A program made the position numbers. A stretch of DNA of 64,000 nt from NCBI RefSeq assembly GCF_057098645.1, contig NZ_CM169472.1; one strand, given 5' to 3'. Below, piece after piece: positions 43,801 to 58,800 of this stretch; positions within the stretch are counted from its first letter, which is position 1, and each line of letters starts with the position of its first letter.

Positions 43801-46800
43801 TGCGGCAAAATGATACCTGTAAAATCAATCGTTGGCATAAATGTCACAGAACGCCAGTAATAGCAAACCGCATACATCAAAAAACTAAATGTCACTAACA
43901 ACCGCATGTCTATTTTGTTGCCATAACGTCCTATCAAAGGTGAAATTAATAGTGGCATGATGCCGATGGGCGCATAAGCAAGTCCGGCCCATATCGCATT
44001 ATACCCCATCGTTTCCTGGAGTAACTGCGGCATAAGGACGATCGCTCCAGAGTAAAATAAATACGCGCATGTGATACTCACAATACCAATGGTGAAATTA
44101 CGGGACTTAAACAAACTGAGATCAAGAATCGGGTTCTCTGAGGTCGACTCCCAAATGACTAAAGAGATCAGAGAAATAACTGATACTACTGTTAATATTA
44201 TTATTGTACTCGAGTTGAACCAATCCAGATCGCGCCCTTTATCAAGCATAATTTGCAAGCCACCAACACCGAGCACTAACAGGGTCAGTCCTGGTAGATT
44301 CATTTTGACCGGTGAAGTCTCAGTTTCTCTTCCTTTAAGTAAGGTTAAGCATAATGTCAGGACGATAATCCCCATAGGGACATTGATTAAAAATATCCAA
44401 CCCCAGCTAAAGTTATCACAAATATAGCCGCCCAATATCGGCCCACATATCGGAGCGATAATCACGGTCATTGACCATAATGCCAGAGCAAATGTCCTTT
44501 TTTCTGGTGGATAATTCCTTAATAATAAACTCTGTGACAGTGGAATTAACGGCCCCGCCATTAACCCCTGAACGACTCTAAAAAATATCAGCACATCAAG
44601 ATTGGTCGATAAACTACACATTAAGGAAGACAGCGAAAAAAAAGTGACTGAAAGTAAAAATAACCTTAATTCGCCTATTCTTTGTGCCAGCCTGCCGGTA
44701 ACAGGGATCGCAATGGCATTTGCTACGCCAAACGAAGTGATAACCCAGGTACCTTCGTCTGTTGATGCTCCCAGAAAGCCAGATATTGTCGGTATTGCGA
44801 CGTTAGAAATAGTGGAATCCAACATTTGCATAAACGTCGCTAATGACAATGCAATAGTGACGCACCATAACGTCCCACCGGTTAATGGTGCCGGAGTTGA
44901 TTTAGTGATTGCCATTAAAGTTGTCCATTATGCGAAATAATGTTGCTAATTTCTTTTTCTATCGGACTGGTATCGATAACTAAAGCCTTACTGGTATAAG
45001 CAGGCATGGAGGTCACGGTTGAAGCCAGATCAGGCATCTCAGCAATGTCTTCGTCCTTCGTATCAATAGTTGCAGTCATCGATAAACCAATGCGCAAGGG
45101 GTGTTCCATGAGTTCTTTTGGATCAAGAGAAACTTCAACCGGTACACGCTGAACGATTTTGATCCAGTTCCCTGTCGCATTTTGTGCAGGTAATAAGGAG
45201 AACGCATTGCCGGTTCCCATATTGATCCCTGTCACCCGACCATGAAACACAACATTTTCACCATAAAGATCGCTGATAATATTGACCGATTGACCAATCC
45301 GTACATCCGTGAGTTGTGTTTCTTTAAAGTTGGCATTAACCCACATTTGACGTGCCGGTACGACAGCCATTAACGATTGTCCGGGGCTCACTGTTTCGCC
45401 GACCTGAACACTTCTCTGGGCAATATAGCCGGTAACCGGACTCTTAATATCCGTACGTTTAAGCGCCAACCAGGCTTCTTTAGTTGCATCCGCCGCTTCA
45501 ACGACTTGTGGCTGACGGTTTAATGGTGTGTTCATTACTAAAGCTTTATTCGCTTTATAAGCCTGGATAGCGGCATTCAATGCCGCTTTGCTACTTATTA
45601 ACGTATCTTTGGTATGCTCCAGCGTTTCTTTTGAAATAACCCCCTGCTTCGCTAACGGCACTCGACGGTTATAATCTTCTAAAGATTGTTGATACTGAAT
45701 ACGTGCTGAAGCGACTTCGGCACTGTATTGTTTATCCTGTAAGTATAGTTTATTCGTTTGCCGAACAATATTTGCCAGATTATTTTTAGCTTTATTGAGT
45801 GCGGTAGTGGCATCAGTTTTATCCAGTGAAACTAAAATGTCACCCTGTCGAACATAGTTCGTATCTTTATGATTAACTACAGTGACACTACCTGAGACTT
45901 GTGCAGAAATTGGATCTGCATTCCCCGTGACATAGGCGTCATCTGTACTAATCATGTCTTCTAATTCCATTGACCAATAGGCATAGGCACCTGAAAACGC
46001 AATAAATAAAACTACCGCCAATAAAGAAAAGTATTTTCTTCTGTTAGAATGTTTTTTATTTGAATTAATCTGTTCCACTTTTATCTCTCATTTCGCATAG
46101 ATGAAATTTATGAATTGAATGAAAAGAGTATTCATTCTTCATATCAAACACAGTGCATGTGTTGCACATTATCCCAGGAACGTTGGAGGCCTAATTTAAA
46201 TGAGGTGCAAAAAAAACAACAGAGGACTAAACCGTGGCTTTTGCAATACAATTCTTACGCCTGTAGGATTAGTGAGAAGACTTATAGTGCTAATGTGAAA
46301 CTATAAATCATCGGTACAATCCCTGATTTTATTGTTGACATTTCATATATGCCGACTATTTATATGGTATACTTATCGAATTATCTTAACGGAAGCTCAA
46401 ATTTTCTTATTTTTATTGAGAAAATGAGATGATGCCTTATGTCTGTATTACTACAGGGAGAAGGGAGATGCTTCATTGCAAAGGGAATAATCTATGAACG
46501 CAATAATTATTGATGACCATCCTCTTGCTATCGCAGCAATTCGTAATTTATTGATCAAAAACGATATTGAAATCTTAGCAGAGTTGACTGAAGGCGGAAG
46601 TGCCGTTCAGCGGGTGGAAACACTTAAGCCTGATATCGTCATCATTGATGTCGATATCCCCGGAGTTAACGGTATCCAGGTGTTAGAAACGCTGAGGAAG
46701 CGCCAATATAGCGGAATTATTATTATCGTCTCCGCTAAAAATGACCATTTTTACGGGAAACATTGTGCTGATGCTGGCGCTAATGGTTTCGTGAGTAAAA

Positions 46801-55800: not shown

Positions 55801-58800
55801 TGTTAAGCATGGTGAAGTAAAGCGCATCGATATCAGGAATATCTCGCAGCTGGTGACGCGTTACGTCACCAACGCCGGGACGTTCAATTTTAATAACGTC
55901 AGCGCCAAACCAGGCCAGCATTTGAGTACAAGATGGGCCAGATTGCACACCGGTGAAATCGAGAACTTTAATTCCTTGAAGTGGAGTTGACATAGCAATA
56001 CCTATTAGTTAATTAAATATGTGTTAATTTAGCGTTTATTTAAGGCATAACGCCCTCTATAAATAATCCGCAAAATATCTTCGTAGCGGCACTCGATATT
56101 TTCACATTCCTGTATCAAGTGCTGAAAATCATTTCATCGCTACTTCCAATTCCTTTCTGCATGGTAAGTAGTGAGGACGAAAAGAAGAATATGATAAATA
56201 TTGGTTCGTGGTAATCAGAGAGAGTCGCGACATTTGTGATGTTATTCTTACAACTGTAAGAAGCGCCGGTGATTTACAAGTAAGGGTATGATTACGCTTT
56301 TTAAAGCGTACCATAAAATATAACATATTAAATGATTTGTGATGACACGGGATTATTGCGGTTTACTTTGAGGAATATAAAATGCGAGTTTATAGAACCG
56401 CGAGCGCCAAATAATTTTATGACCACAACCTGTCGTATTGTGGTCATAAAAAATTGTCGGCTGGAGGGAGTTAAATCCTTTACCTCAATATACTGCCTGT
56501 CAGCATTAGTTCACAAACAGTGCTTCGCTATCGACGATGATTCCATCTTCCGCACCTTTAAGCGCCAGGTTTGCCTCGTAGTATTGCTTTTTATCAAGCA
56601 GTTTCTGCGTATCAGCAAGTGCATTACGAGTCTGTTTAAGCGGCATCAGATATTGGTTTTCCATTACACCAACACCGGCCAGGCGAAGCTCTTCCATTGC
56701 GCCCTTTTTATCCCCTTTCGCCATTTTTTCATTGGCAATTTTTATCGCGGCTTCTTTTTCTGGTGTCGCTACATAACTCTCAGAAATTCCGACAGATGCA
56801 TTAATGACAATATATTGGTCATCATTGAGATTGGTCTTTTTACCTGGCTTAGCGAACTTTGCCCATTCGGTACTGTCATCTGACAACAAAGCGGAAGCTT
56901 CATTGGTCAGTTCTTTTGCCTTTTCCGGATCGCCATGAAACAGAGCCAGGCGCGCTACCTGCACGTCACGCATCGCATATAAACCTTGTTCAGAGATACG
57001 CTCTGCTGCTGCCGTTTTCTGGGTTTGCTGAACTTGCTGAGTTTGCTGTTGTGCCGCTACCGGTGCATTATCAGCAGCCCATACAGTTGAAGATGCCAGA
57101 ATTGCTGTGACCATCGTAGCCATAATTAAACGTTTCATACTTACCTCATTCTTTAACAGTTTTAGAAAACGCCGCCATCATATTGGGTGAGCATGAAATG
57201 AGAAATCAGAGAGCAACGGTCATTTTGAAAGGGTTATCTTACAGTTGTAGTTATTATCGCAAGAAGTATTTTAGTCTTACAATCGTAGGAATATGCTTCC
57301 TGTCACAGAGAACTATTCTTATATACCACAAAGAGATGTCATTTATTATATCGATGTAAATACTGATTAATTAAATGTAAATACAGCTATAACATCGTAT
57401 GTTCTCAGTGAACCATTTTCAGGATAACTTTCTATGAAAGTAAACTTAATAGTTTTTAGCTTATTTTTATTGGTCTCTATTATGGCATGCAATGTTTTTG
57501 CATTTTCCATTTCTGGTGGTGGAAGTGAGAGGAGCTATAAAGAGACGGAAAAAACATCAGCGATGACGACAACTCACTCTACAAAACTTCAGCCATCACA
57601 GGCAATTTTGTTTAAGATGAGAGAAGATGCGCCACCATTAAACCTCACAGAAGAAACCACGCCCCCTTTTCCGACAAAGGCGAGTTATCTTATTCATCCT
57701 GTGCGATAGCGTCTGTCACATGGTAGACTGGCCCCCTGAATCTCCAGACAACCAGTATCACTTAAATAAGTGATAGTCTTAATACTAGTTTTTAGACTAG
57801 TCATTGGAGAACAGATGATTGATGTCTTAGGGCCGGAGAAACGCAGACGGCGTACCACACAGGAAAAGATCGCAATTGTTCAGCAGAGCTTTGAACCGGG
57901 GATGACGGTCTCCCTCGTTGCCCGGCAACATGGTGTAGCAGCCAGCCAGTTATTTCTCTGGCGTAAGCAATACCAGGAAGGAAGTCTTACTGCTGTGGCC
58001 GCCGGAGAACAGGTTGTTCCTGCCTCTGAACTTGCTGCCGCCATGAAGCAGATTAAAGAACTCCAGCGCCTGCTCGGCAAGAAAACGATGGAAAATGAAC
58101 TCCTCAAAGAAGCCGTTGAATATGGACGGGCAAAAAAGTGGATAGCGCACGCGCCCTTATTGCCCGGGGATGGGGAGTAAGCTTAGTCAGCCGTTGTCTC
58201 CGGGTGTCGCGTGCGCAGTTGCACGTCATTCTCAGACGAACCGATGACTGGATGGATGGCCGCCGCAGTCGTCACACTGATGATACGGATGTGCTTCTCC
58301 GTATACACCATGTTATCGGAGAGCTGCCCACGTATGGTTATCGTCGGGTATGGGCGCTGCTTCGCAGACAGGCAGAACTTGATGGTATGCCTGCGATCAA
58401 TGCCAAACGTGTTTACCGGATCATGCGCCAGAATGCGCTGTTGCTTGAGCGAAAACCTGCTGTACCGCCATCGAAACGGGCACATACAGGCAGAGTGGCC
58501 GTGAAAGAAAGCAATCAGCGATGGTGCTCTGACGGGTTCGAGTTCTGCTGTGATAACGGAGAGAGACTGCGTGTCACGTTCGCGCTGGACTGCTGTGATC
58601 GTGAGGCACTGCACTGGGCGGTGACTACCGGCGGCTTCAACAGTGAAACAGTACAGGACGTCATGCTGGGAGCGGTGGAACGCCGCTTCGGCAACGATCT
58701 TCCGTCGTCTCCAGTGGAGTGGCTGACGGATAATGGTTCATGCTACCGGGCTAATGAAACACGCCAGTTCGCCCGGATGTTGGGACTTGAACCGAAGAAC

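What the first reader, a model, noticed from the sequence alone, without database searches (positions are those of the whole stretch)
46253..57291. EvgA-box-like inverted repeats at emrK, frc and yfdX promoters
ttcttacgcctgtagga (46253-46269), the perfect palindrome ttcttacaactgtaagaa (56245-56262) and gtcttacaatcgtaggaa (57274-57291) all fit the EvgA consensus as I recall it (TTCYTACA-N2-TGTARGAA). This matches EvgAS control of emrKY and the oxalate/acid-resistance cluster, which is otherwise known to be EvgA-dependent.
Basis: partly seen in the sequence, partly recalled or inferred. Interest (0 to 1): 0.25.

Follow-up and report, generated by a model that had tools for sequence, protein, structure and literature searches.

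The report
Known EvgA operator boxes in E. coli
The three palindromes are real and are the already-described DNA sites where the acid-response regulator EvgA switches on the emrKY pump, the oxalate (frc) operon and yfdX in E. coli, so the finding is correct but ordinary; a fourth site and a strain-variable 38-bp repeat of these sites upstream of yfdX are small extras.

Summary
Observation confirmed and interpretation supported, but it is already known. The window is E. coli, 100% identical to O145 strain RM9872 across this locus, and covers emrYK–evgAS–yfdE/yfdV/oxc/frc–yfdX–ypdI. Three 18-bp inverted repeats match TTCYTACA-NN-TGTARGAA with 2, 0 and 2 mismatches, against 0.03 expected by chance. 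All lie in the intergenic spacers of operons that the literature describes as directly EvgA-activated. The same box was found, without assuming a consensus, upstream of safA, ydeP and yegR elsewhere in the K-12 genome. Across nine genomes the half-sites are conserved while the NN spacer varies freely. EvgA is a receiver + LuxR-type HTH regulator, a class that binds such repeats as a dimer.

Extras not in the finding:
- A fourth, weaker box lies at 57236-57253, 38 bp from the listed yfdX box.
- It sits at the same distance from a predicted −10 as the boxes of the other promoters. The listed distal box has that distance toward ypdI instead.
- The 38-bp unit (box plus linker) is tandemly expanded to 3–5 boxes in 414 of 5,426 complete E. 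coli genomes.
- The window's distal box carries a T→C change at a core position; its 60-mer was found in 33 records, every one listed being O145.

Interest is low.

The parts
46252..46269 (.). EvgA box in the divergent emrK-evgA spacer (TTCTTACGCCTGTAGGAT, 2 mismatches). Its centre is 182.5 bp from the emrK start codon and 233.5 bp from the evgA start codon.
   Evidence: Conserved in 8 E. coli genomes; in the divergent lineage L005 it is a perfect consensus match.
56245..56262 (.). EvgA box upstream of frc (TTCTTACAACTGTAAGAA, perfect palindrome). Its centre is 260.5 bp from the frc start codon, and it lies downstream of the yfdX terminator.
   Evidence: The only variation seen is in the NN spacer (AC to GC in L005).
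57236..57253 (.). Its centre is 106.5 bp from the yfdX start codon.
   Evidence: The core is conserved and only the spacer varies (GT/AC). It lies at the shared offset (62.5 bp; tabulated as 62-63) from the predicted yfdX -10.
57274..57291 (.). Distal EvgA box in the yfdX-ypdI spacer (GTCTTACAATCGTAGGAA, 2 mismatches here; MG1655 has T at position 11 and so 1 mismatch).
46494..47108 (+). evgA, the response regulator (receiver domain + GerE/LuxR-type HTH) that recognises the boxes.
47113..50706 (+). evgS, the acid-sensing histidine kinase that phosphorylates EvgA.
43377..46078 (-). emrK-emrY efflux operon, regulated target.
50762..55993 (-). frc-oxc-yfdV-yfdE (yfdWUVE) oxalate/acid-tolerance operon, regulated target.
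56506..57138 (-). yfdX, regulated target (Pfam YfdX family).
56415..56451 (-). Terminator-like hairpin (15-pair stem, 4 G-C pairs) after yfdX. It separates the yfdX unit from the frc promoter.
   Evidence: conserved in MG1655 and L005.
57177..57182 (-). Predicted yfdX -10 (TATGAT), starting 62.5 bp from the centre of the proximal box. Inference only; no TSS data were used.
   Evidence: invariant in the alignment.
57344..57349 (+). Predicted ypdI -10 (TATTAT), starting 61.5 bp from the centre of the distal box. Inference only.
   Evidence: invariant in the alignment.
57434..57709 (+). ypdI, the divergent neighbour of yfdX and a possible additional target of the distal box.

Best explanation
These are EvgA operator boxes: 18-bp inverted repeats (TTCYTACA-NN-TGTARGAA). 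A dimer of phosphorylated EvgA, a NarL/FixJ-class response regulator with a LuxR-type HTH, binds one half-site per monomer. Under mild acidity the kinase EvgS phosphorylates EvgA. EvgA then occupies a box centred roughly 75 bp upstream of each transcription start and activates weak sigma-70 promoters for emrKY (and, through the shared spacer, evgAS itself), frc-oxc-yfdV-yfdE and yfdX.

Shown here: the boxes exist well beyond chance; they sit only in the relevant spacers; the same motif marks the other EvgA-direct promoters; the half-sites are under purifying selection while the spacer is free; and the regulator is encoded next door.

Taken from literature: EvgA binds these repeats and these promoters are EvgA-dependent.

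Inferred: the approximate -75 position, which rests on predicted -10 elements only, and class-I-type activation.
For: Statistics:
- 3 matches with up to 2 mismatches vs 0.03 expected.
- 4 matches with up to 3 mismatches vs 0.75 expected.
- All four are intergenic.

Independent motif support:
- The same box lies upstream of safA, ydeP and yegR in MG1655.
- It is also the best shared 18-mer in those three promoters when no consensus is assumed.
- A matrix built from those three sites alone ranks the frc box 1st, the emrK/evgA box 2nd, the proximal yfdX box 3rd and the distal box 6th in the window.

Selection, from nine genomes:
- Segregating sites are 4/64 at core positions, 5/8 at NN spacer positions and 235/1143 elsewhere in the spacers.
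- Core vs other p=0.003; core vs spacer p=0.0004.
- In the divergent lineage L005 the emrK/evgA box changes toward a perfect consensus.

Specificity:
- In 1.47 Mb of frc-containing loci from 80 loci, boxes with up to 2 mismatches occur only in the Escherichia locus that also carries evgAS.
- Moellerella has frc-oxc-yfdV but no evgAS and no box.

Regulator: Response_reg + GerE domains; nearest solved relatives are NarL, VraR, DesR and RcsB.

Geometry: a -10-like hexamer starts 62-63 bp from the box centre in 4 of 5 promoters other than yfdX (permutation 144/20000).

Literature: PMC3720670, PMC4283999, PMC8350985, PMC5706723.
Against: - No binding or expression experiment could be run here.
- The primary papers (Masuda & Church 2002/2003, Kato 2000, Itou 2009) are not in the held library, so direct binding is cited second-hand.
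- Promoter positions are predicted from -10-like hexamers in AT-rich DNA, not from mapped transcription starts.
- The 3-site matrix has a noisy null: the best score in one of 30 random sequences (23.7) exceeded the observed top score (22.1).
- No box with up to 3 mismatches was found upstream of gadE, which is reported as another direct target, so the consensus does not capture all EvgA sites.
- The nine genomes are related, so the Fisher tests overstate independence.
Confidence: 0.93

Rival explanations
1. Refinement of the reader's assignment at yfdX. The unlisted proximal box (57236-57253) is the activator site for the yfdX promoter. The listed distal box (57274-57291) mainly serves the divergent ypdI promoter, or acts only as an upstream helper for yfdX.
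For: The shared box-to-(-10) offset of 62-63 bp was defined from emrK, frc, safA and yegR without using yfdX. The proximal box meets it toward yfdX (TATGAT at 57182-57177, also picked up by the promoter scan). The distal box does not meet it toward yfdX but does toward ypdI (TATTAT at 57344-57349). Both hexamers are invariant in a divergent lineage. ypdI rose 5.5-fold together with yfdX, yegR, ydeO, emrK, frc and oxc in one array study (PMC5811628). The core of the proximal box is conserved while its spacer varies.
Against: The proximal box is a poor consensus match: 3 mismatches, with the right half TGTAGTTA. No transcription start data were used. -10-like hexamers are common in this AT-rich spacer. 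The co-induction of ypdI comes from a glutathione exposure experiment, not an evgA test. As I recall, the literature assigns the distal box to yfdX.
Confidence: 0.35
2. The boxes are bound chiefly by another NarL/FixJ-family regulator such as RcsB (alone or with GadE) rather than EvgA.
For: RcsB binds the yfdX promoter region in Klebsiella pneumoniae (PMC6394985). From memory, RcsB-type half-sites (TARGAA/TTCYTA) resemble the EvgA hexamers. One weak RcsB-pattern match (57286-57299, 2 mismatches) overlaps the right arm of the distal box.
Against: The RcsB pattern is at chance level in the window (58 matches vs 44.7 expected), and none of the four boxes matches it as a whole. The half-site arrangement differs: inverted with a CA-NN-TG core. 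The motif co-occurs exactly with the set of EvgA-direct operons.
Confidence: 0.04
3. The palindromes are chance occurrences, or they act at the RNA level as hairpins or terminators.
For: They are palindromic, and the perfect frc box can fold into a 7-bp hairpin of -6 kcal/mol.
Against: Only 0.03 matches are expected by chance. The hairpins are weak and no better than shuffles (z from -1.8 to +1.2), and two boxes do not fold as the palindrome at all. There is no G+C-rich stem or T-run. The terminator scan finds the real yfdX terminator elsewhere. The conservation pattern, with fixed half-sites and a free central dinucleotide, is that of a protein-binding site.
Confidence: 0.01

Closest known systems
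EvgA binding sites of the E. coli K-12 EvgA regulon (18-bp inverted repeat upstream of evgA/emrK, yfdX, yfdW(frc), ydeP, b1500(safA)-ydeO and yegR; Masuda & Church 2003, Kato et al. 2000, Itou et al. 2009)
   Same: Same genes, same positions and the same sequences. The window's boxes are identical to those of MG1655 apart from one base in the distal yfdX box. These are the same sites in another strain.
   Different: The O145 window has T to C at position 11 of the distal yfdX box. I could not confirm whether the proximal yfdX box or the 38-bp repeat polymorphism appears in that literature, because the primary papers are not held.
BvgA binding sites of Bordetella (inverted heptads TTTCCTA at fha, bvg and ptx promoters); BvgAS is the closest studied homologue of EvgAS
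   Same: A NarL/FixJ-class regulator activated by an unorthodox phosphorelay kinase. It binds as a dimer to inverted repeats whose half-site (TTTCYTA) resembles the EvgA half-site (T)TTCYTACA. Activation occurs from upstream positions, sometimes with additional lower-affinity sites next to the primary one. All of this is from my own knowledge and was not tested here.
   Different: Different organism and regulon. The spacing between half-sites and the array organisation differ. No Bordetella sequence was examined.
RcsB box (NarL/FixJ family; pattern KMRGAWTMWYCTGS as given in PMC6394985)
   Same: Same regulator family, similar hexamer content, and RcsB regulates yfdX in Klebsiella.
   Different: The arrangement of the half-sites differs. 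The pattern is not enriched in the window and does not coincide with the boxes.

Membership tests
EvgA box (EvgA regulon operator) | 18-bp inverted repeat matching TTCYTACA-NN-TGTARGAA | tested here: met
   0, 2 and 2 mismatches for the three listed boxes and 3 for the fourth; 3 found vs 0.03 expected at up to 2 mismatches.
EvgA box (EvgA regulon operator) | Located in the upstream intergenic region of an operon whose transcription depends on EvgA | tested here: met
   Positions checked against annotated genes. EvgA dependence taken from the literature.
EvgA box (EvgA regulon operator) | Same motif present at the other directly regulated promoters of the regulon | tested here: met
   safA, ydeP and yegR upstream regions carry it, and it is the top de novo shared 18-mer. 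None was found at gadE with up to 3 mismatches.
EvgA box (EvgA regulon operator) | Cognate regulator with a LuxR-type HTH encoded in the genome | tested here: met
   evgA lies at 46494-47108 with Response_reg + GerE domains. PDB entries 5F64, 8ZWN and 3F6C are EvgA.
EvgA box (EvgA regulon operator) | Half-sites under selective constraint relative to the central dinucleotide and flanks | tested here: met
   Segregating sites 4/64 core, 5/8 spacer, 235/1143 other; p=0.003 and p=0.0004.
EvgA box (EvgA regulon operator) | Consistent position relative to the core promoter | tested here: inconclusive
   A -10-like hexamer lies 62-63 bp from the box centre in 4 of 5 promoters (permutation p about 0.007). 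These are predicted elements only, with no mapped starts.
EvgA box (EvgA regulon operator) | Direct binding by (phospho-)EvgA in vitro or in vivo | not testable with these tools
   Reported second-hand: PMC3720670 citing Masuda & Church 2003; PMC8350985 citing Kato 2000. The primary papers are not held.
RcsB box | Match to KMRGAWTMWYCTGS at the site | tested here: not met
   58 matches vs 44.7 expected window-wide. Only a partial overlap with one arm of the distal box.
Intrinsic terminator / structured RNA hairpin | Stable G+C-rich stem-loop followed by a T-run, folding better than shuffles | tested here: not met
   Minimum free energy -1.6 to -6 kcal/mol, z-scores -1.8 to +1.2. None of the boxes is called by the terminator scan.

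The most novel reading that the evidence does not exclude
The yfdX-ypdI spacer is a bidirectional, two-box EvgA control region: the proximal box is positioned for yfdX and the distal box for ypdI. Its 38-bp box-plus-linker unit behaves as a variable-number tandem repeat, with 2 boxes in most strains and 3 to 5 in 7.6% of complete E. coli genomes. This would tune EvgA-dependent output between lineages. The O145:H28 lineage in this window additionally carries a core-position T to C change that weakens the distal box.

The repeat polymorphism and the SNP are facts of the sequences. Their regulatory effect, and the role of the fourth box, are untested.
Probability: 0.3. Interest if true: 0.35.

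Novelty: already known. Interest (0 to 1): 0.12.

Why it matters
The listed finding adds nothing new. It recovers operators of a well-studied acid-resistance and efflux regulon, which is mainly a check that the scan can recognise real regulatory sites.

The side observations could matter modestly. PyfdX is widely used as an EvgA reporter, so three things affect how reporter constructs are designed and how strains compare: a second conserved box at the canonical promoter distance, natural copy-number variation of boxes in 414 of 5,426 genomes, and a lineage-specific core mutation in a Shiga-toxin-producing O145 clone. Together they also offer a natural allelic series for asking how the number and spacing of response-regulator sites set promoter output.

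Tried and rejected
1. I tried to read the primary sources (Masuda & Church 2002, PMC151933; Ma et al. 2004, PMC523220; Eguchi et al. 2007, PMC2141842). None is held. Full-text searches for the literal consensus or '18 bp inverted repeat' found nothing. Literature support is therefore second-hand.

It returned mostly Burkholderiales, Actinomycetota and Alphaproteobacteria. Only the E. coli representative and Moellerella were close, so E. albertii, E. fergusonii and E. marmotae could not be examined.

3. The matrix built from three outside sites ranks the boxes highly, but its null distribution is too noisy to count as a test on its own.

4. The RNA hairpin or terminator reading was rejected.

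5. The RcsB-box reading was rejected as the main explanation.

6. A multi-unit repeat query to rank genomes by copy number confused the place-joining logic. I replaced it with the junction 40-mer query.

7. The simple sigma-70 scan did not give confident promoters for emrK, evgA or frc.
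Full report
**What is there.**
- Box 1's quoted 17-mer actually lies at 46252-46268. The full 18-mer is 46252-46269, TTCTTACGCCTGTAGGAT.
- Box 2, 56245-56262, TTCTTACAACTGTAAGAA, is a perfect palindrome.
- Box 3, 57274-57291, is GTCTTACAATCGTAGGAA.

Against TTCYTACA-NN-TGTARGAA they have 2, 0 and 2 mismatches. With up to 2 mismatches these are the only matches in the 64-kb window, against 0.03 expected from dinucleotide-preserving shuffles. All four are intergenic.

**Where it is.** The window is E. coli. It is 98.2% identical to MG1655 over 2478000-2498000 and 100% identical to O145 strain RM9872 over 45900-57700. The gene order is:
- emrY-emrK on the minus strand
- evgL-evgA-evgS on the plus strand
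- yfdE-yfdV-oxc-frc on the minus strand
- yfdX on the minus strand
- ypdI on the plus strand

The locus is core, present at 80% or more coverage in 5,386 of 5,426 complete genomes.

Box 1 lies in the 415-bp divergent emrK-evgA spacer. Box 2 lies 260 bp upstream of the frc start codon, downstream of a strong terminator-like hairpin that ends the yfdX unit (56451-56415, minus strand). The last two boxes lie in the 295-bp divergent yfdX-ypdI spacer.

**Independent test of the motif.** From my own knowledge, the EvgA-direct operons also include ydeP, safA(b1500)-ydeO and yegR.
- In MG1655 each has one box in its upstream spacer: TTCTTACAGGTGTAGGCT, TTCTTACAGCTGTAGGCA and TTCCTACATAAGTAGGAA.
- A matrix built only from those three sites ranks the frc box 1st, the emrK/evgA box 2nd, the proximal yfdX box 3rd and the distal yfdX box 6th in the window. 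Its null distribution is noisy, so I do not lean on it.
- No box with up to 3 mismatches lies upstream of gadE.

**Evidence of function from variation.** I aligned the three spacers from nine genomes: the window, MG1655, six further E. coli (one chosen for its repeat expansion, five spanning the identity range), and the divergent GTDB representative L005, whose EvgS is only 91% identical at the protein level.
- Segregating sites are 4 of 64 at the specified half-site positions, 5 of 8 at the central NN positions and 235 of 1,143 elsewhere in the spacers.
- Core vs other gives p=0.003, and core vs NN gives p=0.0004.
- Of the four core changes, two in L005 convert the emrK/evgA box to a perfect consensus. 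One affects a position of the proximal box that was already off-consensus. The fourth is the window's own T to C in the distal box.

Fixed half-sites around a free central dinucleotide are the signature of a dimeric protein-binding site, and the pattern holds for the unlisted fourth box too.

A scan of 1.47 Mb around frc homologues from 80 loci found boxes with up to 2 mismatches only in the Escherichia locus. Moellerella wisconsensis has frc-oxc-yfdV but neither evgAS nor boxes.

**The regulator.** evgA, next to box 1, encodes a receiver domain plus a GerE/LuxR-type HTH. EvgA itself is solved (5F64, 8ZWN, 3F6C), and its nearest solved relatives are NarL, VraR, DesR and RcsB. From established knowledge, this class binds inverted repeats as dimers.

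**Literature.**
- PMC3720670 states that EvgA binds inverted repeats that induce yfdX and yfdWUVE, citing Masuda & Church 2003.
- PMC8350985 states that EvgA binds the emrKY promoter directly, citing Kato et al. 2000.
- PMC5706723 uses PemrK and PyfdX as directly EvgA-activated reporters.
- PMC4283999 reports that an EvgA site is found in all genes known to be directly regulated and in no others among the strongly induced genes.

The primary papers are not held. From memory, Masuda & Church 2003 identified this 18-bp inverted repeat in six upstream regions serving seven operons and showed gel shifts. That matches what the sequences show here.

**Rivals.**
- Chance is excluded by the counts.
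- An RNA-hairpin or terminator role is excluded. The folds are weak (-1.6 to -6 kcal/mol) and no better than shuffles, and two boxes do not fold as the palindrome.
- An RcsB-box reading, prompted by RcsB control of yfdX in Klebsiella, is not supported. That pattern is at chance in the window and does not coincide with the boxes. Cross-talk at yfdX cannot be excluded.

**Promoter geometry (inference).** I anchored each promoter on its box and oriented it toward the gene. A -10-like hexamer then starts 62-63 bp from the box centre in emrK, frc, safA and yegR, and at 57 bp in ydeP.
- Without yfdX, 4 of 5 promoters share that 2-bp window (permutation 144/20000).
- The proximal yfdX box fits it: TATGAT at 57182-57177, also found by the promoter scan. 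This raises the count to 5 of 6 (4/20000; 1/20000). I chose this box after seeing that it fit.
- The listed distal box does not fit toward yfdX, leaving 4 of 6 at that window (permutation 542/20000). It does fit toward ypdI, with TATTAT at 57344-57349.
- Both hexamers are invariant in L005.

This puts the box centres near -75, a class-I-like position. It also suggests that the proximal box serves yfdX and the distal box serves ypdI or acts as a helper. ypdI rose 5.5-fold together with yfdX, yegR, ydeO, emrK, frc and oxc in one array study (PMC5811628). No mapped transcription starts were available, so this remains a hypothesis.

**Side findings.**
- The two yfdX boxes are 38 bp apart and are direct repeats of each other (14 of 18 positions).
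- In O91 RM7190 the 38-bp unit (box plus 20-bp linker) is duplicated, giving three boxes in register.
- Strain IBS28 has four boxes (Tandem Repeats Finder: period 38, 3.4 copies, 98% matches).
- The junction 40-mer, which should occur only in expanded alleles, occurs exactly in 414 of 5,426 complete genomes, with up to three junctions (five boxes) in one genome.
- The expansions leave the proximal box fixed relative to yfdX and the distal box fixed relative to ypdI.
- The window's T to C at position 11 of the distal box is rare. Its 60-mer is exact in 33 records, and every one listed is O145 or O145:H28. The MG1655 allele's 60-mer is exact in 2,267 records.
- I found no mention of the repeat in the searchable literature, which is weak evidence of novelty.

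**Verdict.** The boxes are the known EvgA operators of a well-characterised regulon, so the finding is already known and of low interest. The fourth box, the shared promoter geometry, the 38-bp box repeat polymorphism and the O145 core SNP are minor additions that could be tested with simple reporter and footprinting experiments.

Noticed in passing
window 57236-57291; L085 19954-20047; L086 407-534: The proximal and distal yfdX boxes form a 38-bp direct repeat. In other strains it is tandemly expanded: 3 boxes in O91 RM7190 and 4 in IBS28. The expansion junction is present in 414 of 5,426 complete E. coli genomes, with up to 3 junctions (5 boxes) in one genome.
   Followed up: partly
window 57284: T to C at position 11 (a core TGTA base) of the distal yfdX box. 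The window's 60-mer is exact in only 33 records, and every one listed is O145 or O145:H28. The MG1655 T allele's 60-mer is exact in 2,267 records.
   Followed up: partly
window 57724-59052: A ~1.33-kb insertion relative to MG1655, 14 bp after the ypdI stop codon. It carries two overlapping ORFs (136 and 301 aa) and a ~7-bp overlap of the flanking alignments (target duplication). Genomes that cover this stretch annotate it as an IS3-like element of the IS2 family.
   Followed up: partly
window 57316-57323: A further half-site-like octamer (TTCTTATA) lies 42 bp beyond the distal box, on the ypdI side and in the same orientation as the left halves of both boxes.
   Followed up: no
L006 (Moellerella wisconsensis) 10001-15628: The closest non-Escherichia Frc (86% identity) lies in a frc-oxc-yfdV-frc2 cluster with no evgAS, no yfdX and no boxes. 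The next closest relatives are Paraburkholderia (78%), which hints that the E. coli oxalate cluster was acquired horizontally and placed under EvgA control afterwards.
   Followed up: no
L004 7887-7904 (MG1655 mdtE coding region): An 18-mer with 2 mismatches to the EvgA consensus (TTCTTACGCATGAAAGAA) lies inside mdtE, within the gadE-mdtEF operon, which is reported to be EvgA-influenced. It may be chance.
   Followed up: no
window 46468-46497: The 9-codon small ORF evgL (MLHCKGNNL), which overlaps the evgA start, is intact in this strain.
   Followed up: no
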